Of a stretch of DNA of 64,000 bases, positions 227 to 60,126 are shown piece by piece. The DNA is from a virus, in the IMG/VR virus record IMGVR_UViG_3300049855_000609, positions 28,564-92,563 of that record, one strand, 5' to 3'. A program made the translations under genes and the position numbers. Position 1 is the stretch's first letter. Every line of letters begins with the position of its first letter. The notes under the pieces are model-generated. The model ran no database searches and was not told the DNA's origin. It worked only from the letters and a program-made list of their open reading frames with translations.

Positions 227-3200
227 TAGACAAGAACACCGATATAAATAAACCCCTCATAGGTCTTTCCACAGACACACATCCTGGGGAACAGCCTAAG
301 CATACATACAGGTATGCCCTGAATGCTGTGGACCAGGCAGAAAATGGAAACAGCCGGGATCTGTCCAATGAGAACGGTTTTGATCTGTGTGGAACTATTA
401 CCTCCGGGTACTACCCTATAGGAAAGGTGTACATGAATGATGATACCCTGGTGATCTTCTCTGCCAATCCTACTATTGATGGCTCTGAGATAGGGATACT
501 GGATAAGAATTGCAACTATACTGCTGTGGTCAATACCCGTTACCGGGAAGTAGTGGTTGATGAAGTGACCACAGTGCTGGAAACCAACTGCCTGAACTTC
601 AGCATAGAGTATCAGATAGATGTGCAATACCGGCTCCGCAGAGGTTGTGAACATACTGTGTATTTTGCCAATGGTAAACATAACCCGGTGAGGTATTTCA
701 ACTTTTCCCGGCTTTCAGATTTTCAAACTGAAGACTATAATACCTGGGTAGCCGGTGGCTCCATAGGAGCTGCTCCGGATCAGAGATGGGACTGTGCTAA
801 GTTCAGGCTATATCCGGAATACAGCATTCCTTCCATGGACTCCGTAGAGCAGATCACCGGAGGTGCTATTCCCAGCTGTACTTTAAACTTCAGTATTCGT
901 TACCTGGATGCTGACTTCAATCCTACTCCCTGGATATACTCCTCTATGCTGGTAGACGTTTACCGCGATAATCAGAACTCCGGATTTGAAAATATATTGG
1001 GATCTTCCAACCTGGCTGCAGATGAGCTGGCAGGAAGCCCTCCTACCAATAAAGCAGTAAAGTTGTTTTTAAGTGATCTGGATACCCGGTATCCGTATTA
1101 CCAGATAGCCGTAGCTGTAGCCAAAGACTCCAATGGCCTGGTCAGCAAGGTTTATCAGAGCCCTTATCAGAACATAGACCGTGAGGAATTTGTCTTTGAT
1201 GGTTTGCTGGAAGGATATTCAGAGATACCACGCGAGGATCTTCTGGTAAAAAGGATAGACTACGATTTTGCAGATCATATTGAGCAGATGGAAAACAGGC
1301 TGTTACTACTGTCCATGTATGGCCGGCAGGTGAATTGGTGTTCTTTTCAGCAGTATGCCTCTAAGATAGCCACCAAGTACATCATTGAAACGGTGCCTTC
1401 CCGGGATCAGTTTTCTGCAGGAAACCCTAAATGTCCGGACACCTATTTTGTAAAAGAAGGGTATATGGGAGATGAGGTATATGCCATGGGCATAGTTTAT
1501 GTTTTCCGGGATGGTTTTGAGTCTCCGGCTTTCCATATTCCTGGCAGGCCCCTGAATAAATACCCGATCCTTGTAGATAATGATGTGACCTGTGAAGATC
1601 TTCCTGATGATGATGAGGAAGAATTATTGTGGTCAGAAGACCTGATACCCTGGTTTGAGGATGAGACGGCCTATAATAATGATGGCCCTATTCCTTTTTG
1701 GAAAGTATTTGACAGCTCTTACAGGACAAGTGGCAGTGCCTCCGGTGATGCCACCGGTGCCATGCAGTACCATGAGAATGAGAATTTTGTATATCCTCCA
1801 AGAACAGATTGTGAAGGCAGTGACTTCTGGGGTGTAGACTTCTGTGGAAATCCCCTGGCCGGAGAAAAGGTCAGGCATCATAAGTTTCCTTCCCGGGCCA
1901 AGGAACCTCATATATCCGGTACCACGACCACTACCAGTGACATGGGAGTGTTTATCAACATCGCGTTGAAAGAAGATGTAGCCTGGGGAGATGTGGGAGC
2001 TGCTTCCGTAGTGTGGACAGTGAACTTTGAACAGCCTATAGGAGTACCTCAGTCCATAGACATTACCATATTCGAAAATGGTGCTGCCCTTCCTGGAACA
2101 GCTGTACCTCCTGATAAGGAAAGCAATGAGCCTGTCAATGAGCTGATGATATACAGCTTCACCGGAGATCTTTTGGATATACAACTGGATGCCAGCACCG
2201 GGGATCTGATAAGTACCTACTCTCAATATTTTGATTTTTACATAGACATCCGGCCATTGAATGAAGCCCATACTGATAACATCAGCCTGAGACCTTTAGG
2301 CATACAGTTCATGGGAGTAGAATATCCTCATCCTGATATTGTAGGACATTACTTTGTCCGGGCAGAGAGAACAGAGGGACAGAGAACTATACTTGACAAA
2401 GGCATCTTTGGAAGGCTCCGGGAAGAGGCTACAGCTTGTAGTGCCAACTACCATACCTTCAGCTATTTCACGAAAGGCAATGATGATGAAAGTAATGCCT
2501 ATCTGTTCTCTCCCAAATTCATGTTCAATAAAGAGGTAGCTAAACCGGATTACATAAAGAATGAATGTAAGTTTGACATAGACCATATAAATCATTCCGG
2601 TAAGAATGTTGATGATCCTGACCATAAAAGGGCCTGGGGTAATGAAACGGACATGATCATAGAAGTCCGGGGACAGGTTTACAGTGGAGTAACGGCTTCA
2701 GATGACGGACATAACTATGCCGTAGACAAAATAGTAGTATTGGATGGCTTGTCCAATGATGAGGTTATCATTCCCGGGGATGAGGTATATAATTTGAGCT
2801 GGACACAGAGAATGCAAATGCTTAAAATGATGACCGGTGTCACTGTACCTTACAACAGTGATGATATTTATTATGCTTCCTTAAAGGTAAACAGAGATGT
2901 CTACGGTGTACTGGATAATATCAAATACTACCGGATACATAACTCTCTCTTTAAAAGGGATGAAGGAACAGATATACCGGAGCAGATTGCTCCTGTAGTG
3001 TATGGGGGAGATACCTTTATCTCTGAACTTGATCTTTCTAACTCTTTGTGGAGAAATCAGAAGAAGGGAATAGGAATGAAGATCTGGCTGATCATAGGTT
3101 CTGTGGTATTAGCTGTAGCTTCTGTATTTACCGGTGGAGCTGTAGTAGGATTAGTAGGTCCTATTTTAGCCGCGGTAATATCTACCACAGCCTTAACTGC

Positions 3201-5088
3201 TCTTGCTGCCAGTGCAGCTACCATAATAGCTGCAACAGTAGAATTGGTACTAAAGAAGTATGATGAGAATTGCCTGGATGAAATGGTGACAGACACTGAT
3301 CTGGCAAGCATACACAATCTTCGAAAATGGAATGGTTATATAAACTTTGCCAATGAGTACCTGAAAGGTATCTATGTTGAAAATGAGATCAATATAGCCC
3401 TTCGGCAGGAACAGGGATATGAGTGTGGACAATTCTATAAAGGCGGGTTATTAAAAGCTACTACTTTTTTCCGTGATCGGTGGTTATATGACAGGGATCA
3501 CAACGGAGAGTACAGGAAAAGAGGGGTCCCTTGTCCGGAAGTATATCAGTATAACAAGGACTTTTCCCGGATGAACAAGGAGTCTGAATACTATGCCCTT
3601 CCGCAGACCTATGATTGCTGTTCAGAATGCCTGGAGGAACATCCTCACAGGGCCATGTACTCGGAGCAGTCTTTTCAGGAAGAGCTGATAGACAACTACA
3701 AGATCTTCAAACCCATGAACTACCGGGATATAGAAGGGGAGCATGGTAAGATCACCGGGGTATTCAGAATGGGAGAGAAGCTGATGATACTCACAGAAGA
3801 GATGCTCTGGGAGATGGTGGCCTCTTTCCAGGAAAAGGTCATTGGAAGCATAGTATCCTATGTGGGAACCGGGGATTTCTTCTCCATTCCTCCACGCAAG
3901 ATGATCGATGACAAGCTCGGCGCCATAGGCACACAGCATAAATGGGGAGTGATAAAGACCCGGCATGGTACCCTGATCCCTTCAGAAAGGGAGAGTAAGA
4001 TGATCCTGCTTTCAGATACCCTGCATGATCTGGGAAGGGAGGGGGAAATAGTAAACGATCTGGAGCTATTGTTGCATGATTACCTGTCCAATCAGATGCT
4101 GACACTGGTAGGTATTCCATTCCCTTTTACCAACAACCCGGCTAACCCTTATGGAGTAGGTATACATTCAGCTTATGATGTAAGGCACAACAGGCTCATT
4201 ATCACTAAAAAGGATTACCTGATCATTGAAGACAATTACTCCCAGGAACCTCTGGAAGGATCTATGACCTGGCTTCCGCTGGGCCATCCTTATGGGGTTC
4301 TCTTCCCGGAAGGAAATGTCTTCATTACAGTAGCCAATAGCCAGGTTCTGACAGTGGCCCTGGGAGATCCTGACTTCTTTGAGAATAAGAGCTGGACCAT
4401 GAGCTACTCTTTCAACACCAACCGGTGGAGGAGCTACCACAGCTATATCCCGAACTTCTATGCTTTTACTCCCAATAACCTGTATTCTTTCATAGACAGC
4501 AATGTATGGAAGCATAATATTCCGGGTATCTACCAGACTTACTATGGTGTTACTTATCCATATATCATAGAGCCGGTGCTTACTCTTTCTGGTGTACAGA
4601 CTGCATTCTGGGAAGACCTGTCCATGCAGACCCTGGCATTTAAGATCTTGGACAACAACCATCCTGTAGAGCAGAGGTTTGTGACCTTCAACAAGATCAT
4701 AGCCTATAACTCCCGGCAGTCAACAGGACTGAAAACCATTACTCCCAAAGACAATGAGACCGCGGCAGACTTCCTGGAAAACCAGATTCTGGACCGGCAA
4801 GGGGATATGCTGGCAGAGAGAAGGGAGAGGGATTGGAGCATCAATGACCTCCGGGACCATGTGATCGATTATGATCTACCTCTGTTTTTGAAGAGCTGGG
4901 ATGACATCAAGGCCCAGTTTCCTATAGATAAGGTACCCAATGCCTTGTCAACAGATGTGGATAAGGAGTGGTATGAGCTGGAGATCCTGAGAGATAAATT
5001 CCTGACAGTCCGTTTTATTTTTGATAATTTTAATGATGTTCAGTTACTTGTGAAATATATTACCTCAGAGCCTCAAATATCAGAGTGA
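223..5088 (+). CDS. Tail stabilisation/muzzle protein (P22 gp10-like, crAss-like)
   Basis: 1621 aa. N-terminal GLxTD..P..QP..TYRYALNA; central DEVYAMGIVYVF.DG.ESP.FHIPGR; YGGDTFIS; C-terminal WTMSYS...W.SYHSYIP. Lies between the ring protein and cargo genes. Confidence 0.8.
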   Translation: MIDKNTDINKPLIGLSTDTHPGEQPKHTYRYALNAVDQAENGNSRDLSNENGFDLCGTITSGYYPIGKVYMNDDTLVIFSANPTIDGSEIGILDKNCNYTAVVNTRYREVVVDEVTTVLETNCLNFSIEYQIDVQYRLRRGCEHTVYFANGKHNPVRYFNFSRLSDFQTEDYNTWVAGGSIGAAPDQRWDCAKFRLYPEYSIPSMDSVEQITGGAIPSCTLNFSIRYLDADFNPTPWIYSSMLVDVYRDNQNSGFENILGSSNLAADELAGSPPTNKAVKLFLSDLDTRYPYYQIAVAVAKDSNGLVSKVYQSPYQNIDREEFVFDGLLEGYSEIPREDLLVKRIDYDFADHIEQMENRLLLLSMYGRQVNWCSFQQYASKIATKYIIETVPSRDQFSAGNPKCPDTYFVKEGYMGDEVYAMGIVYVFRDGFESPAFHIPGRPLNKYPILVDNDVTCEDLPDDDEEELLWSEDLIPWFEDETAYNNDGPIPFWKVFDSSYRTSGSASGDATGAMQYHENENFVYPPRTDCEGSDFWGVDFCGNPLAGEKVRHHKFPSRAKEPHISGTTTTTSDMGVFINIALKEDVAWGDVGAASVVWTVNFEQPIGVPQSIDITIFENGAALPGTAVPPDKESNEPVNELMIYSFTGDLLDIQLDASTGDLISTYSQYFDFYIDIRPLNEAHTDNISLRPLGIQFMGVEYPHPDIVGHYFVRAERTEGQRTILDKGIFGRLREEATACSANYHTFSYFTKGNDDESNAYLFSPKFMFNKEVAKPDYIKNECKFDIDHINHSGKNVDDPDHKRAWGNETDMIIEVRGQVYSGVTASDDGHNYAVDKIVVLDGLSNDEVIIPGDEVYNLSWTQRMQMLKMMTGVTVPYNSDDIYYASLKVNRDVYGVLDNIKYYRIHNSLFKRDEGTDIPEQIAPVVYGGDTFISELDLSNSLWRNQKKGIGMKIWLIIGSVVLAVASVFTGGAVVGLVGPILAAVISTTALTALAASAATIIAATVELVLKKYDENCLDEMVTDTDLASIHNLRKWNGYINFANEYLKGIYVENEINIALRQEQGYECGQFYKGGLLKATTFFRDRWLYDRDHNGEYRKRGVPCPEVYQYNKDFSRMNKESEYYALPQTYDCCSECLEEHPHRAMYSEQSFQEELIDNYKIFKPMNYRDIEGEHGKITGVFRMGEKLMILTEEMLWEMVASFQEKVIGSIVSYVGTGDFFSIPPRKMIDDKLGAIGTQHKWGVIKTRHGTLIPSERESKMILLSDTLHDLGREGEIVNDLELLLHDYLSNQMLTLVGIPFPFTNNPANPYGVGIHSAYDVRHNRLIITKKDYLIIEDNYSQEPLEGSMTWLPLGHPYGVLFPEGNVFITVANSQVLTVALGDPDFFENKSWTMSYSFNTNRWRSYHSYIPNFYAFTPNNLYSFIDSNVWKHNIPGIYQTYYGVTYPYIIEPVLTLSGVQTAFWEDLSMQTLAFKILDNNHPVEQRFVTFNKIIAYNSRQSTGLKTITPKDNETAADFLENQILDRQGDMLAERRERDWSINDLRDHVIDYDLPLFLKSWDDIKAQFPIDKVPNALSTDVDKEWYELEILRDKFLTVRFIFDNFNDVQLLVKYITSEPQISE

Positions 5089-49093: not shown

Positions 49094-51052
49094 GTTGTTC
49101 AGCTTTTTTGTTATGAATGCTCTCGAATGTGTTCCTGTTTCCGAACATATTGGTCTGGATATGCCGCGGGCATTCTGTGTCACGGCTGTCTACCAGGTGT
49201 ATGCTTCTGTACTTCGGATACAGCAGTTTTCCTCCTTGTCCTACCAGGTTCAGGCCAAAGTGCTTGGCCAAATTGTACTTGTCGTCATTGGGGTTGAACA
49301 TCGTGATCAGGTAGTTGGCCTCTTCACTGATATTACCCGAATCCTTGACATCATCCCCATTCGGATACAGGCAGTCCTTCATGTACTTGATCCTTTCAAT
49401 GTTGGACATGCTCCTGTTCAAATGGACAATGTCCACGAAGATGAATTTACACCAGTTGCGGAGTTCCACCTGGTATTCCACCATCTTGTCCATGTTCTCT
49501 TTGAGAGTATACCCTCTTTCTTTATTCATCTTTCGAATGTGGTCTAAGATGACTATCAGGGTCTTGTCCGGATCATGGGGCTTATAGCCTACTATCCTGG
49601 CTCTCTCTTCCTTTTTCTTGTTCTCTCCTACATGAATGTACTTCTGCTCGATAAACTCCCCATGTTCCCTGGCATAGGAAAGCAAATAATTACGGATACC
49701 GGTGGGATTATCCCTCTGCTCTATGAAGTCCACTCTCCCTCTTTTCAGCTTGATCCCATTGTCATCATATTCTCCGAACAACGGGATTATCCTGTCTTCA
49801 TAGATCTTAAACAGGATCTCTCTGTGTTCATCCATCACCGGCACCAGTTCCTTGGTCTTGGGGTCTACCAGCTTCCCCATCAGGTAATCCGGCCCTATCT
49901 CATAGGTCTGGCCATTGTAGTGCCTGAATGCTGTCAGGTCATGGTCATGCCAGAAGAAGAAGCCGGCCAGCTTGAATTCCTTCTGTACCCGGTCAATCTC
50001 AAAGGAATAGTAGATCCAGTCCACATCCTTCTCCGGTGCCAGCACATAGGGTGACAGCAGAAAAGCAAAGTCTACCAGGGTGGTCTTACCCAGTGTGTTA
50101 TCTTGCAAGCTCTTTATCCTGCAATTCTGTGGCTTCTTGTTAAGTTATTACCACAGCTCAGACTATATCATCAACTACTTTCATTGTAGTTGTTGGGCGC
50201 TCTTGTCAGCTTCATCACCGTTCTGGTGGTATGCTGTTAGTCGTTGAACCTTCTAAACATTCCTGTTTAGCTTGGCTGCTGATTGACCTCTCCAGGTTTT
50301 TCCAGCAATTCACCCAATTTTACAAGGTCAGTGTATTGTTGTTTAAAATACCACTTATATCCCTTCATTTGTTGGTAGATTCCTCTCAGTACCCTTTGTA
50401 CAGCACTTTTGTCAATACTATGTGCAGTACAGGCCTTTCTAATAGACTCATACTCCACAATTTCTCCTGTTGCAATGTGTACCCCTATTACTGCTTTTGC
50501 GCAATTAGGCTTTAACCCCTCCTGATACAGCCGCAGTCTTGTTTCTGACATCTTCTTTTTTGAAGCCTCAGATGGGGTATTGTTTATTACATCAGTAGTG
50601 ATATTAAACTCTGGTTTATACAAATTGACAAAGAACTGTTCTCGTACTACAAGATCCTCTGTAAACTCTAAGATGAATAGCTTAAAAGCTTTCATTCCAT
50701 GAATTATAGCTGATCCCTGCAGCCTCGAGTTTTGATGTTTGCCATGCTTCAACAAGCTAAAATGTTTGTCTCTTCTTCCTCCAATATTAGTGGAGCTTCC
50801 GATATACATCTGACCTGTTATTACATTTTTAATGGCATATACACCTTTGTTTTGAAAATCTACCATCTCGTAAAGGTAATACTAATAGCAGTACCAAACA
50901 AGTTTTCTTCTTTTAACCTTGGGGGCAGCAGCTATACCATAGATGGAGGATTTCTGAATACCATTCAGGGCTGCTTCCAGCTCCGGGATACCCATAGGCA
51001 GTCCCACGGCTTTGCCCTGCTGGCCTCTTTGAAAGGCTGTCTTGAAATTCAT
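49065..51052 (-). CDS. DnaB-like replicative helicase, spliced (exons 51052-50915 and 50090-49065)
   Basis: Exon 1 MNFKTAFQRG...IYGIAAAPKV joined to exon 2 GKTTLVDF restores Walker A; also YSFEI, ILDH, HLNR and KDSG motifs. Confidence 0.9.
50091..50914 (-). mobile_element. Group I self-splicing intron in the helicase
   Basis: 5' exon ends in U and the intron ends in G. Conserved core on the - strand: AATCAGCAGCC, GTTCAACGACTA and GATATAGTC. Confidence 0.9.
50267..50866 (-). CDS. Intron-encoded GIY-YIG homing endonuclease
   Basis: GVYAIKN......YIGSS....R...H...L..GKH.N..LQ; C-terminal NUMOD1-like HTH. Confidence 0.92.
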   Translation of the reverse strand: MVDFQNKGVYAIKNVITGQMYIGSSTNIGGRRDKHFSLLKHGKHQNSRLQGSAIIHGMKAFKLFILEFTEDLVVREQFFVNLYKPEFNITTDVINNTPSEASKKKMSETRLRLYQEGLKPNCAKAVIGVHIATGEIVEYESIRKACTAHSIDKSAVQRVLRGIYQQMKGYKWYFKQQYTDLVKLGELLEKPGEVNQQPS

Positions 51053-55887: not shown

Positions 55888-55904
55888 AATTTTAAATTTT
55901 TATT

Positions 55905-56595
55905 AGCACCCTCTTTCTTATCCTTTCCTGCGATTAAATCCAGGAGCCTCACAGACATTATAAGCCTGCCTTCCTAAGAGTAGGGTCACACAATGATGGG
56001 AAAACCAACGCTACTATTGAGTCTGCCTTCCAGGTTACATAATTCCACTCTTAACCCTTATCTTATACCTCAATCGCTTGACATCATTATTTGCCGAGAA
56101 CTCATTTGTGTTATATCAGATTATTGATATACCCTTTCGGGTTCTCCCCCTCTGGTTGGGAAAACTTTAAAGTCCTTTCTCAAGGGACAACAACACATAC
56201 AGACTTACATCTGTAATCTTTATGTAAATTAGAGCAAGACAAACTCTACTGGACTAATCGTAGATTTATAGTTACTTGACCTATTATGTGGTATTTCCAA
56301 AGCCCACCACTAACTTACAAAGGTATTCAATGTTTAACCTTTTATGTAGACTATAGAGGCTAAATACGTTAGCTTATAATCACTTCACTTTATTTTTAAA
56401 AAGAACTGACTGTCACCTCCAGATTGTGTGAATAATACGCAGTAGCCTTCTGTTTTATACAGCTTATTTAATTTCCTCATTTATCCCTCTATGAACAACT
56501 CCCTTCTGGTTGGGATTATAACAATTAACCCTACATACGTTCTTATGGTTGTAAAGGATATTTCGAGTTATTCGTTCACTTCAGGCAGTCAGCCT
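55905..56595. ncRNA. Putative structured non-coding RNA cluster
   Basis: No ORF of 60 aa or more; successive stem-closed domains; repeated motif ccc(c/t)tctggttggga at about 56147 and 56501. Confidence 0.4.
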
Positions 56596-56597
56596 TT

Positions 56598-57223: not shown

Positions 57224-57501
57224 AATAAAGACCTTATTTGTTCCATGATATCTTTTCCCCATTTCTGTTCTATGAACTCCGCAGTAGATACTCCATCCGG
57301 AACACCCAGTATTTCATCCAGTTTGATAACATCGATAGCAAAGCTTCCCATGGAACAGACCACTCCATCCAGGGGAATACCCATATTTATCTTCTTCTGC
57401 ACTTCCATCCAGGTTTTTCTCTTTGCCAGGAACTCTTCTGTCATCTGGTCTTTTTTCATTTTTGCCAGCACTTCGCCAGCAGCTTCTATAGCTTCTTTCA
57501 T
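57220..57501 (-). CDS. Hypothetical protein
   Basis: 93 aa; D.IKLD......S...FI..K.G motif. Confidence 0.6.
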   Translation of the reverse strand: MKEAIEAAGEVLAKMKKDQMTEEFLAKRKTWMEVQKKINMGIPLDGVVCSMGSFAIDVIKLDEILGVPDGVSTAEFIEQKWGKDIMEQIRSLL

Positions 57502-57677
57502 GATTCAAATTTTAATCCGTAAATCAAACAAAATATTCCCCAGGCCCAGTATCCGTAGACAATAAGAGCCATCTTTTTATCCCGAAACTTGTATCCGTCT
57601 TCTATCAGGTCTTCAAAAGAGAAAAACAAATACCCCTGGACTATAGCGGTAATGAGAAAACAAATTATTCCTATCAT
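57498..57677 (-). CDS. Small membrane protein (59 aa, below the cutoff)
   Basis: MIGIICFLITAIVQGYLFF...YWAWGIFCLIYGLKFES*; ATGA overlap with the next gene. Confidence 0.55.
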   Translation of the reverse strand: MIGIICFLITAIVQGYLFFSFEDLIEDGYKFRDKKMALIVYGYWAWGIFCLIYGLKFES

Positions 57678-57699
57678 GTTGTTGTTTTTAATCGTTAAT

Positions 57700-58345
57700 A
57701 AAAAGGAAGAACAGGGAATTGCAGCTTTGCCTTTTCAGCTCAGGGCATCTTGTGCGATGTAAGTTCCCCAAACATACAGACAGTAATGGTGGCTATTATT
57801 CCAATTACGTCTTCATCCCTGTTCTTCAGAAGGCATGTGGCATAAAGATCCTAAGATAGTTACGGCATCATGGCTCCCTTTCTCCTCCTCGGCCTGCATA
57901 GATGAAACATCTCTACAAGTTCAGAGTACTACCCTCACCAATAACCGCGGAAACAACCGCTGATTGGAATCCTGGGTAATAACACCCGGCCAGGTATATC
58001 GCCATGTCAAATTTAAAATAAAATAATTTCTAAGCTTTGTTTTATCAGGCTCACTAAGATATAATTCTCCCTATATATCGGGATCATTGCATCTCTTTTA
58101 CAGGATATGTTTTCCATATCATTTGCCAGACAGGAATAAACTCAGCCGTCTTTCCTCTTTATGCCGGTACTTAGAAATCATACTCCCCCAAGGGATCAAG
58201 ACCTACCTCGTGGCTCTATAGTAGTGGTAGGAGTCTAAGACCCTGTCACAAAAGTGATCATGGCCATTACTCCCGGAATAAATCCGGAAGCCATCAGAAC
58301 TTTTATCCGTCTTTGGAACGGCATCCTGATGTGACAGGAGAGCAA
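57700..58345. ncRNA. Putative structured non-coding RNA cluster
   Basis: ORF-free; perfect long-range stems 57706-17/57816-27, 58026-34/58170-78 and 58242-50/58330-38. Confidence 0.45.
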
Positions 58346-58350
58346 CAACC

Positions 58351-58794
58351 CTACTTAGACTGTTCCACTACCGGTTGCTCTTGTTGGGTTTCATCTTTTC
58401 CGGGATCTACCCCGGATTTTCCTTTTGCCGGATCAAAGGCGTCTTTTACCTCATCCATAACCTTACCCAGCATGGCTAATTTCTCTTCATTCATCTTGAA
58501 GTAAAGGTCCTGAAGCTCTTTTATAGCCCGGAGCTTGTCTTCTTGCTCTTTCAGCTGGGTCTTCATGATAACCAATAAAAAGGCTATTTCCCTGACGGAA
58601 AGCCCCTTTTCTATTTCTTCCACCTCTATGGAAACTTTGGTTTTCCCCATTCCTTCTTCTGAGATACCACTTCTTTCTCTGATCTTCTCTTCAACAGCCT
58701 TCAGGTTTTGTATAAACTCTTCTTTGTCGATGCCTATGGCTTCGAATGCATCTTTTGCCTCATGATTGTAAGGCTTTGGTTCATTGTTGCTCAT
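58351..58794 (-). CDS. Hypothetical coiled-coil protein
   Basis: 147-aa ORF. Confidence 0.6.
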   Translation of the reverse strand: MSNNEPKPYNHEAKDAFEAIGIDKEEFIQNLKAVEEKIRERSGISEEGMGKTKVSIEVEEIEKGLSVREIAFLLVIMKTQLKEQEDKLRAIKELQDLYFKMNEEKLAMLGKVMDEVKDAFDPAKGKSGVDPGKDETQQEQPVVEQSK

Positions 58795-58858
58795 GTCTGC
58801 TTTTTTAATTTGAAATAATAAATTATAATTTGAACACCTGTTGCCGTAGGCGTAGCCG

Positions 58859-58891
58859 AAAAAAATCAGAGTGCCAATAATGACACTCTGA
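58859..58891 (-). terminator. Intrinsic terminator
   Basis: Stem tcagagtg / cactctga with a T7 tail on the - strand. Confidence 0.75.
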
Positions 58892-59952: not shown

Positions 59953-60126
59953 CCCTTGTTTATTGCGTTTGCTCTAATTGGCTACCTTTACAGGCCCGCA
60001 ACAAATCCATTGCCACAACTCTTTCTCACCGTTTGTCTTGAATACCGAAGTTCCCGATATTCGTCTGCATGGCCAAAATTCGTGGGGGGTTTCAAAGAGT
60101 AGGAGGGTAGACGGTAGAAGAAAAAC

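What the first reader, a model, noticed from the sequence alone, without database searches (positions are those of the whole stretch)
57700..58345. Array of back-to-back stem-closed RNA-like domains (cluster 2)
Seen: 650 ORF-free nt tiled by 100-175-nt segments whose two ends pair. These are gaagaacaggga/tccctgttcttc (57706-57827, 12 bp), an imperfect pair at about 57832-58008, atttctaag/cttagaaat (58026-58178), a long hairpin at about 58192-58243, and cctgtcaca/tgtgacagg (58242-58338). The interiors differ and contain short hairpins; two domains are followed on the - strand by U-rich runs. Inference: a polycistronic set of small structured RNAs processed at the closing stems (decoys, antitoxin or tRNA mimics, guides). 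Keeping this much non-coding DNA in a dense phage genome suggests function.
Basis: partly seen in the sequence, partly recalled or inferred. Interest (0 to 1): 0.7.

Follow-up and report, generated by a model that had tools for sequence, protein, structure and literature searches.

The report
Non-coding RNA island in crAss-like phage
A 673-base gene-free stretch of a crAss-like phage holds at least one real structured small RNA, from a family missing from Rfam that other phages carry among their tRNA and tmRNA genes; the other four proposed RNA domains are unconfirmed.

Summary
The observation mostly holds. Window 57678-58350 has no credible ORF in any genetic code tested. It carries three perfect long-range inverted repeats at the stated coordinates (12, 9 and 9 bp). 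The minus strand, which is the strand of the flanking genes, folds better than shuffles (z about -5).

The domains are not equally supported. The middle domain, D3 (58181-58016, minus strand), is a real conserved RNA. A covariance model finds it in 10 other phage contigs, including a 321-kb jumbo phage. Those copies share a covarying closing stem, a covarying pseudoknot, three inner helices and long invariant unpaired blocks, and the closing stem is usually followed by a U-run. In one phage D3 lies 3 nt after tRNA-Lys and 4 nt before tRNA-Thr; in others it lies near tmRNA or tRNA genes. It has no Rfam match, and I found no copy in 185,000 prokaryote genomes.

D1 and D5 are unusually stable but have no homologues. 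D1's twister-ribozyme resemblance fails the family test. D2 and D4 fold no better than shuffles.

My reading is a phage RNA-gene island, the counterpart of the tRNA/tmRNA islands of related phages. It holds one new stable small RNA of unknown, probably trans-acting function. The scan's notes held no look-alike on other DNA.

The parts
57678..58350 (-). ORF-free RNA island between the 147-aa gene (58351-58794) and the 59-aa gene (57498-57677)
   Evidence: No ORF in any code tested. Six-frame translation has no match in about 100 related loci. Minus-strand MFE is -215 against -179/-182 kcal/mol for shuffles. A/T skew drops to about 0 here, unlike the coding flanks.
58016..58181 (-). D3: conserved structured small RNA (closing stem P0, core, U-run)
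   Evidence: CM R1 scores it 130 bits and R3 91 bits. Ten homologous contigs were found. Covariation beat 500 of 500 shuffles.
58170..58181 (-). D3 P0, 5' arm (AUGAUUUCUAAG)
   Evidence: Pairs with 58023-58034. The equivalent stem is present, with a different sequence, in 10 of 11 members. Cognate duplexes average -12.4 kcal/mol against -6.0 for non-cognate pairs.
58023..58034 (-). D3 P0, 3' arm (CUUAGAAAUUAU), followed by the U-run 58025-58009
   Evidence: A U-run follows P0 in 9 of 11 members.
58165..58167 (-). D3 pseudoknot strand X (CCG); pairs with X' at 58146-58148 (CGG) in the loop of P1
   Evidence: The same two places pair in other members as GUC/GAC, GGC/GCC, AUGC/GCAU, CACC/GGUG, CUCCAC/GUGGAG, CUCUAC/GUAGAG and CCUG/CAGG.
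58132..58156 (-). D3 helix P1 (AGGAA 58156-58152 with UUCCU 58136-58132) and its loop
   Evidence: Two of its 6 pairs show compensatory change and none is broken.
58104..58127 (-). D3: GGC of P2 (58127-58125, pairs with GCC at 58050-58048), invariant AAAU, and hairpin P3 (58120-58115 with 58109-58104)
   Evidence: All 6 P3 pairs show compensatory change. P2 is invariant.
58242..58338 (-). D1: stem-closed domain with a weak twister-like core (58258-58329)
   Evidence: z is -4.6. The Rfam twister-P3 score is 22.3 bits against a cut-off of 39.9, with E 0.12 on 1.4 kb. The hit is below E 1 on the whole genome. No homologue was found.
58192..58243 (-). D2: hairpin, not distinguishable from chance
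   Evidence: z is -0.9. No homologue was found.
57832..58008 (-). D4: weakly structured stretch. It holds a 30-codon ORF (58005-57913). Its first 13 nt (AAAUUUGACAUGG, 58014-58002) are shared with the sequence after D3 in two related phages.
   Evidence: z is -0.4. The ORF is listed. The 13-mer occurs once in the window and in L010/L068/L069, where it starts the next stem-closed module.
57697..57827 (-). D5: 12-bp closing stem, three inner hairpins, then CUUUUUAUU
   Evidence: (z -4.4). The single-sequence CM R2 finds nothing in 50 other phage genomes. The exact-word scan gave 0 hits.

Best explanation
The 673-nt gap is a non-coding RNA-gene island read on the minus strand. It is the counterpart, in this phage, of the tRNA/tmRNA islands that related crAss-like phages carry in the same early/replication region.

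Its central module D3 (about 155-165 nt) is a stand-alone structured small RNA of a family not in Rfam. The 5' and 3' ends pair in a 9-12 bp closing stem, P0. An H-type pseudoknot joins the segment after P0 to the loop of helix P1. A GGC/GCC helix (P2) encloses a covarying hairpin (P3) and a variable hairpin (P4). About 45 unpaired A-rich positions are nearly invariant.

Inferred steps: the island is transcribed with the upstream early operon. D3's 3' end is made at the P0 stem plus U-run, by termination or trimming. In phages where D3 sits between tRNAs, it is released by the tRNA-processing enzymes. The paired ends make the RNA stable. It then acts in trans, most likely by binding a protein or the translation apparatus, as its tRNA and tmRNA neighbours suggest.

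D5 has the same build (12-bp closing stem plus U-run), and D1 is similarly stem-closed. They are candidate further RNAs of this kind, but both are orphans. D2 and D4 are probably linkers, or D4 may be a small ORF.
For: Shown:
- No ORF and no protein-level similarity.
- Strand-specific excess of structure.
- D3 was found by CM in 10 other contigs at 29-135 bits, always one copy per genome and always on the strand of the neighbouring genes where checked.
- In the D3 family, 95.5% of cells are paired, 11 of 19 pairs have double changes, and 0 of 500 shuffles reach the covariation score. Slid controls give 32-45% paired.
- P0 and the pseudoknot pair in cognate but not in non-cognate combinations.
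- D3 sits between tRNA-Lys and tRNA-Thr in L125/L119/L121, 132 nt before a tRNA in L123, about 200 nt before two tRNAs in G029, and 358 nt after a tmRNA in G003.
- Relatives carry tmRNA and tRNA genes in ORF-free islands of the same region. This genome has none.
- In the crAss-like phage phi14:2, two long intergenic regions of the early region are transcribed above most genes and stay abundant (10.1101/2020.03.07.982082). One of them holds a tmRNA.
- In G003/G004 the island after D3 is again a row of stem-closed modules, with conserved closing stems and diverged interiors.
Against: - There is no expression data for this phage.
- D1, D2, D4 and D5 have no homologue in 50 related or D3-bearing genomes, or in exact-word scans of IMG/VR. 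Their status rests on folding energy alone, and D2 and D4 fail even that test.
- P0 stems are AU-rich next to the U-run, unlike the clear hairpin terminator after the 218-aa gene, so termination at P0 is uncertain.
- D3's function is unknown. The association with tRNA genes is incomplete: none lies within the loci of G049 and G052, and this genome has none at all.
- The family is small (11 members), and some members are close relatives.
Confidence: 0.6

Rival explanations
1. Only D3 is functional. The remaining roughly 500 nt are untranslated spacer: the 3' UTR of the 147-aa gene, the 5' UTR of the 59-aa gene, or decayed remains of tRNA/tmRNA or other genes. Their stems are chance or leftovers.
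For: D1, D2, D4 and D5 have no homologue anywhere searched. D2 and D4 fold like shuffles. 3.5% of windows in this sequence have three or more such inverted repeats.
Against: D1 and D5 have z about -4.5, and no shuffle of 200 does as well. The 12-bp perfect stem of D5 followed by a U-run copies the build that is conserved in the D3 family. Phage genomes this dense rarely keep 500 nt of junk. Relaxed ARAGORN and Rfam searches see no tRNA or tmRNA remnant.
Confidence: 0.3
2. The whole 673 nt is one large ornate RNA of the GOLLD/ROOL type, and the 'domains' are its sub-structures.
For: The global fold pairs the extreme ends (GUUGUUG 58349-58343 with CAACAAC 57684-57678), and the whole region has z about -5. 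GOLLD and ROOL also lie near tRNAs in phages (PMC5737381).
Against: D3 occurs alone, closed by its own stem and its own U-run, in 10 other phages without the other four domains. U-runs lie inside the region. There is no Rfam GOLLD or ROOL signal even at E 10.
Confidence: 0.07
3. D1 is a type-P3 twister self-cleaving ribozyme. It cuts the transcript just after the 147-aa gene and frees the downstream RNAs.
For: The Rfam twister-P3 alignment covers the full model. It matches the P4 hairpin, the AUAAA linker, an 8-bp P1 hairpin and the UAA cleavage triplet, on the right strand and 10 nt after a stop codon.
Against: The score is 22.3 bits against a gathering score of 39.9, and the hit is not significant on the genome scale. 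The T2 pseudoknot partner is deleted in the alignment, and the loop U of T2 is replaced by A. T2 is described as the most critical tertiary contact (PMC5408937). T1 and P2 are weakened. None of the 50 other phage genomes searched has a twister.
Confidence: 0.1
4. Part of the region is coding after all. Short peptides, such as the 30-codon ORF 58005-57913 in D4 that encodes a hydrophobic peptide, explain some of the 'gap'.
For: D4 has no structural signal. The neighbouring genes are also very small, and the 59-aa product is hydrophobic.
Against: The 34-codon ORF inside D3 is not kept in homologues, because P3 and P4 differ in length and sequence. The ATG of D4 lies in a 13-mer whose counterparts in G003/G004 open only 6-7 codons. 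No protein similarity was found.
Confidence: 0.12
5. The stems are cis-acting signals: terminators, attenuators or RNA-stability caps that set the expression of the flanking small genes. They are not trans-acting RNAs.
For: P0 plus a U-run looks like a long-range terminator, and D5 ends 28 nt before the next start codon. In L085, D3 ends an operon that faces a convergent gene.
Against: About 45 invariant unpaired nucleotides and a pseudoknot are far more than a terminator needs. In L125, D3 lies between two tRNA genes with no mRNA to regulate.
Confidence: 0.1

Closest known systems
Stable small RNAs of unknown function in phage tRNA gene clusters (T4 RNAC and RNAD)
   Same: They are phage-encoded, non-coding and abundant, and their function is still unknown (PMC9697503). 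That they lie in the T4 tRNA cluster is from my own knowledge. D3 likewise lies inside or next to tRNA and tmRNA genes.
   Different: No sequence or model relationship was tested or seen. D3 has a pseudoknotted multi-helix core and occurs in phages of other lineages, including ones with no tRNA genes, such as this one.
GOLLD and ROOL large ornate RNAs
   Same: They are complex-folded, have conserved unpaired nucleotides, are often near tRNAs and in phage DNA, and have no known function (PMC5737381).
   Different: They are 580-800 nt against about 160 nt for D3. They are also found in bacterial genomes, whereas I found no D3 copy in 185,579 prokaryote species genomes. Rfam gives no match for D3.
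tRNA/tmRNA islands and abundant early 'long non-coding RNAs' of crAss-like phages (phi14:2, FpV4 group)
   Same: Same phage group, same early/replication region, and same ORF-free islands on the gene strand. In phi14:2 these are highly transcribed from the earliest time point (10.1101/2020.03.07.982082).
   Different: This phage's island has no tRNA or tmRNA. The phi14:2 and FpV4 loci examined have no D3.
Twister ribozyme, type P3 (RF03154)
   Same: D1 shares the P4 hairpin sequence, the AUAAA linker, the P1 hairpin and the UAA triplet.
   Different: D1 scores below the family threshold, lacks T2 and has weakened T1 and P2 (PMC5408937).
Candidate structured RNAs predicted in IMG/VR (Fremin et al. 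2023, PMC10690425)
   Same: The data source and kind of object are the same: covarying phage RNA motifs, many of them tRNA-like or terminator-containing.
   Different: I could not check whether D3 is among the 8,495 motifs, because no supplementary files are held.

Membership tests
D3 family (defined here: models R1 and R3) | Full-length match to the covariance model, far above noise | tested here: met
   The window's D3 scores 130 bits with R1 (though it was one of the 3 seed sequences) and 91 bits with R3. Independent members score 29-109 bits.
D3 family (defined here: models R1 and R3) | Closing stem P0 between the 5' flank and the 3' end, usually followed by a U-run | tested here: met
   58170-58181 pairs with 58023-58034 and is followed by UAUUUUAUUUU. 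P0 is cognate-specific in 10 of 11 members.
D3 family (defined here: models R1 and R3) | Pseudoknot between the segment after P0 and the loop of P1 | tested here: met
   CCG (58167-58165) pairs with CGG (58148-58146). This is short in the window but clear in L085, L123 and L122.
Twister ribozyme type P3 (RF03154) | Score at or above Rfam's gathering score | tested here: not met
   The score is 22.3 bits against 39.9. There is no match at E <= 1 per genome.
Twister ribozyme type P3 (RF03154) | T2 pseudoknot (two loop-L4 nucleotides paired with a dinucleotide after P2) | tested here: not met
   In the model alignment the AC partner falls in a 4-nt deletion, and the loop reads GA instead of GU. 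No UC follows P2 (the requirement is from PMC5408937).
Twister ribozyme type P3 (RF03154) | Self-cleavage at the U-A step | not testable with these tools
   This needs an in-vitro cleavage assay.
tRNA / tmRNA | Detection by ARAGORN or Rfam RF00005/RF00023 | tested here: not met
   ARAGORN finds 0 genes in the window. Rfam finds nothing in the region at E <= 10. The whole genome has no tmRNA candidate and only one 16-bit tRNA-like hit, inside an ORF. The hits from relaxed ARAGORN are noise.
GOLLD / ROOL / other Rfam families | Any Rfam 15 match | tested here: not met
   The only gathering-level hit in the window is the group I intron at 50142-50368. Nothing relevant appears at E <= 10 in 57300-58700.
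Intrinsic (Rho-independent) terminator | Short GC-rich hairpin with a 3-8 nt loop, directly followed by a T-run | tested here: not met
   No such site lies inside 57678-58350 on the minus strand. The P0 and D5 stems have 98-135 nt 'loops'. Whether they terminate cannot be told from sequence.

The most novel reading that the evidence does not exclude
D3 is a new functional class of phage RNA with biochemistry of its own. It could be a ligand-sensing or catalytic fold, or a decoy that neutralises a host RNA-targeting or translation-targeting defence. It travels horizontally between unrelated phages as a cargo gene of tRNA arrays. In this reading, the island in this phage is a battery of such RNAs (D1, D3, D5) that stands in for the tRNA/tmRNA set of its relatives.
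Probability: 0.15. Interest if true: 0.8.

Novelty: new variant of a known kind. Interest (0 to 1): 0.55.

Why it matters
Phage tRNA and tmRNA islands are usually annotated only for what ARAGORN finds. This work shows that they also carry at least one unrecognised, complex-folded RNA family that moves between unrelated phages, from crAss-like phages to a 321-kb jumbo phage. It also shows that a crAss-like phage with no tRNA genes still keeps two such islands.

The abundant early non-coding transcripts seen in phi14:2 have no assigned function. A defined, covarying 160-nt RNA with a pseudoknot is a concrete object to test for expression, protein partners and effect on infection. It is also a ready candidate for an Rfam family.

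Tried and rejected
- Alternative genetic codes (TAG=Q, TAA=Q, table 4) open no credible gene. The phage's giant ORFs are intact under table 11.
- Pseudogene of a neighbouring gene: six-frame tblastn against about 100 related loci gives nothing.
- tRNA, intron-bearing tRNA, or tmRNA including permuted forms: default ARAGORN and Rfam are negative, and relaxed settings give only noise.
- Known Rfam families: none.
- DNA similarity to cultured phages (INPHARED): none.
- Internal repeats between this region and the other ORF-free region: none.
- Close relatives of the phage: none exist in the collections. The best protein identity is about 50%.
- Homologues of D1, D2, D4 and D5: none by nhmmer, BLAST over whole related genomes, a single-sequence covariance model for D5, or exact-word scans of IMG/VR.
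- Hammerhead reading of D1 (CUGAUGG ... stem ...): by eye, there is no GAAA after stem II.
- The 13-mer AAAUUUGAYAUGG as a repeated promoter: it occurs once in the window.
- D3 in prokaryote genomes: 0 and then 35 pattern hits, and none of the 35 matches the model.
- L107, a metagenome pattern hit, is a chance match.

Full report
**Setting.** The window is the right-hand 64 kb of a complete 92.5-kb IMG/VR phage genome with direct terminal repeats.
- Giant virion proteins on the plus strand and a minus-strand replication block mark it as crAss-like.
- Its cultured relatives are the Flavobacterium psychrophilum FpV4 group, at about 43% identity for the neighbouring 218-aa protein.
- Genes around the finding are all on the minus strand.
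- The nearest copy of the phage's early-promoter motif is at 60081-60094 on the minus strand. The island therefore lies in an early or middle transcription unit.

**Observation.**
- The gap has no ORF of 40 aa or more on either strand under table 11. Reading TAG, TAA or TGA as sense gives nothing credible.
- Six-frame translations match nothing in about 100 related loci.
- Three or more such repeats per 673 nt occurred in 0.65% of simulations and in 3.5% of windows of this sequence.
- As RNA, the minus strand folds at -215 kcal/mol against about -180 for shuffles (z -4.6 to -5.2). The plus strand is weaker.
- Per domain on the minus strand, z is -4.6 for D1, -0.9 for D2, -3.3 for D3, -0.4 for D4 and -4.4 for D5. 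Three of the five domains stand out and two do not.
- U-runs follow D3 and D5.

**Known families.**
- ARAGORN finds no tRNA or tmRNA. Rfam finds only the group I intron at 50142-50368.
- At E <= 10, the one notable hit in the region is twister-P3 on D1, at 22.3 bits against a cut-off of 39.9.
- The alignment keeps P4, the AUAAA linker, P1 and the UAA triplet. It loses the T2 pseudoknot on both sides and weakens T1 and P2.
- T2 is described as the most critical tertiary contact (PMC5408937).
- On the genome scale the hit is not significant, and none of 50 other phage genomes has a twister. I do not file D1 as a twister.

**Relatives.**
- No close relative exists.
- An alignment of homologues of the 218-aa protein brought in 58 loci.
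- Many of them have ORF-free islands that hold tmRNA and tRNA genes.
- The same is true of FpV4 and phi14:2.
- In phi14:2, two long intergenic regions of this part of the genome were reported as transcribed above most genes, from the earliest time point, with stable abundance and unknown function (10.1101/2020.03.07.982082). ARAGORN places a tmRNA at 4031-4500, inside the ORF-free gap (2905-4601) that holds those junctions.
- The present genome has no tRNA and no tmRNA at all, yet it keeps two islands.

**D3 is a conserved RNA.**
- nhmmer linked nt 147-322 of the region to ORF-free DNA in L041/L042 and L010.
- A covariance model built from three sequences (R1) was combined with two exact-pattern scans of IMG/VR and one metagenome scan. 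Together they gave 11 members.
- Four members come from 48 crAss-like genomes: this one, G003, G004 and G029.
- Five come from phages with no homologue of this phage's DNA polymerase, including a 321-kb contig.
- Two more come from short contigs (L126, 21 kb, and L105, 3.9 kb) whose phage group was not tested.
- There is one copy per genome.
- On the model's structure, 95.5% of cells pair and 11 of 19 pairs show double changes. All six pairs of hairpin P3 covary, and no shuffle of 500 reaches the observed score.
- Reading the flanks showed two more elements.
  - A closing stem, P0, of 9-12 bp has a different sequence in almost every member. Cognate duplexes average -12.4 kcal/mol against -6.0 for non-cognate pairs. 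A U-run follows P0 in 9 of 11 members.
  - A pseudoknot joins the segment just after P0 to the loop of P1. Examples are GUC/GAC, GGC/GCC, AUGC/GCAU, CACC/GGUG, CUCCAC/GUGGAG, CUCUAC/GUAGAG and CCUG/CAGG; the window has CCG/CGG.
- Long unpaired blocks are nearly invariant: AAG, AUUAAAUUGA, GUCU, AAAU, CUGUAAAAG, AGUGA and AUAAACAAAG.

**Context of D3 elsewhere.**
- In L125 (and the equivalent L119 and L121) the RNA, including P0, starts 3 nt after tRNA-Lys and ends 4 nt before tRNA-Thr.
- In L123 a tRNA follows after 132 nt.
- In G029 two tRNAs follow after about 200 nt.
- In G003 a tmRNA precedes by 358 nt, and in G004 by about 900 nt.
- In L101 D3 lies between two same-strand genes. In the jumbo phage it closes an operon.
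- No member was found in 185,579 prokaryote species genomes. One pattern gave 0 hits and the other gave 35, and none of the 35 matches the model.
- D3 therefore behaves as a self-contained, mobile RNA gene of lytic phages and travels with tRNA arrays.

**The other domains.**
- D1, D2, D4 and D5 have no homologue by any method used: nhmmer on all loci, BLAST over 49 whole genomes, a single-sequence covariance model for D5 over 50 genomes, and exact-word scans.
- D5 copies the D3 build: a 12-bp closing stem, inner hairpins, then CUUUUUAUU.
- D4 has no structural signal. It holds a 30-codon ORF for a hydrophobic peptide.
- D4's first 13 nt are shared with the sequence after D3 in G003/G004. There they form the 5' arm of the next stem-closed module.
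- In those two phages the whole island downstream of D3 is a row of modules with conserved closing stems and diverged interiors. It also contains the homologue of this window's cluster-1 element.
- The 'array of stem-closed RNA domains' is thus a recurring architecture in this phage group. For this window's D1 and D5, though, it remains an inference.

**Mechanism.**
- Shown: a non-coding, strand-specific, structured region, and one conserved pseudoknotted RNA with paired ends.
- Inferred: transcription with the upstream operon; 3'-end formation at P0 plus the U-run, or by tRNA-processing enzymes where tRNAs flank it; stability from the paired ends; and action in trans on a protein or on the translation machinery.
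- A 12-bp closing helix is the length of a tRNA acceptor/T-arm stack (my own knowledge). This suggests, without evidence, that RNase P or RNase Z could recognise such stems.
- The function itself is unknown.

**Verdict.**
- The finding is real in part. The region is an RNA-gene island whose centre is a new family member.
It is shown for one domain only, and only by analogy with homologues.
- The scan's earlier notes hold no look-alike on other DNA.

Noticed in passing
window 55888-56597 (minus strand), especially about 55974-56242: The other ORF-free region ('cluster 1') also holds a conserved RNA element: AUGUGUUGUUCC...CAACACAAAUGAGUUCUCAGCAA...UGACCCUACUCUU. It matches L013 3873-4123 (nhmmer E 2e-7). 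The same blocks appear in the G003/G004 island about 600 nt after their D3. Short matches are also found in L012, L035 and L038.
   Followed up: partly
L141 5039-5453 (FpV4); L142 4031-4500 (phi14:2); many of L009-L059: tmRNA genes are widespread in this crAss-like group, with tag peptides ending ...ELAVAA, ...LAMVA and the like. They are not annotated in the FpV4 and phi14:2 records shown. The phi14:2 copy lies in the ORF-free gap (2905-4601) between g004 and g006, where the published highly expressed 'long non-coding RNAs' map.
   Followed up: partly
L042 7194-7360; L054 3550-3692: Rfam calls tRNAs of 167 and 143 nt (47-51 bits) that ARAGORN misses. These are tRNA genes with insertions of about 70-95 nt, too short for a group I intron.
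   Followed up: no
L068:700-1500 (minus) and L069:640-1500 (minus), alignment A11: In G003/G004 the roughly 900-nt ORF-free island after D3 is a row of stem-closed modules. Their closing stems are conserved while the interiors have diverged, with compensatory changes.
   Followed up: partly
L123 1425-1500; L052 3837-3913; L054 3701-3777; L123 6566-6641; L055 4549-4624: Relatives and other D3 carriers encode suppressor-type tRNAs (anticodons UUA and CUA) and tRNAs with 4-nt anticodons. This hints at stop-codon or frameshift suppression in some of these phages.
   Followed up: no
window 58858-58890 (minus strand): By eye, there is a clear hairpin terminator (CAGAGUGUC-AUUAUU-GGCACUCUG followed by AUUUUUUU) right after the 218-aa gene. 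The simple scan did not list it. The 147-aa gene and the RNA island may therefore need their own promoter or read-through.
   Followed up: no
window 58343-58349 and 57678-57684: The extreme ends of the island are complementary over 7 nt (GUUGUUG/CAACAAC) and pair in the global fold. This may be chance.
   Followed up: no
   Followed up: partly
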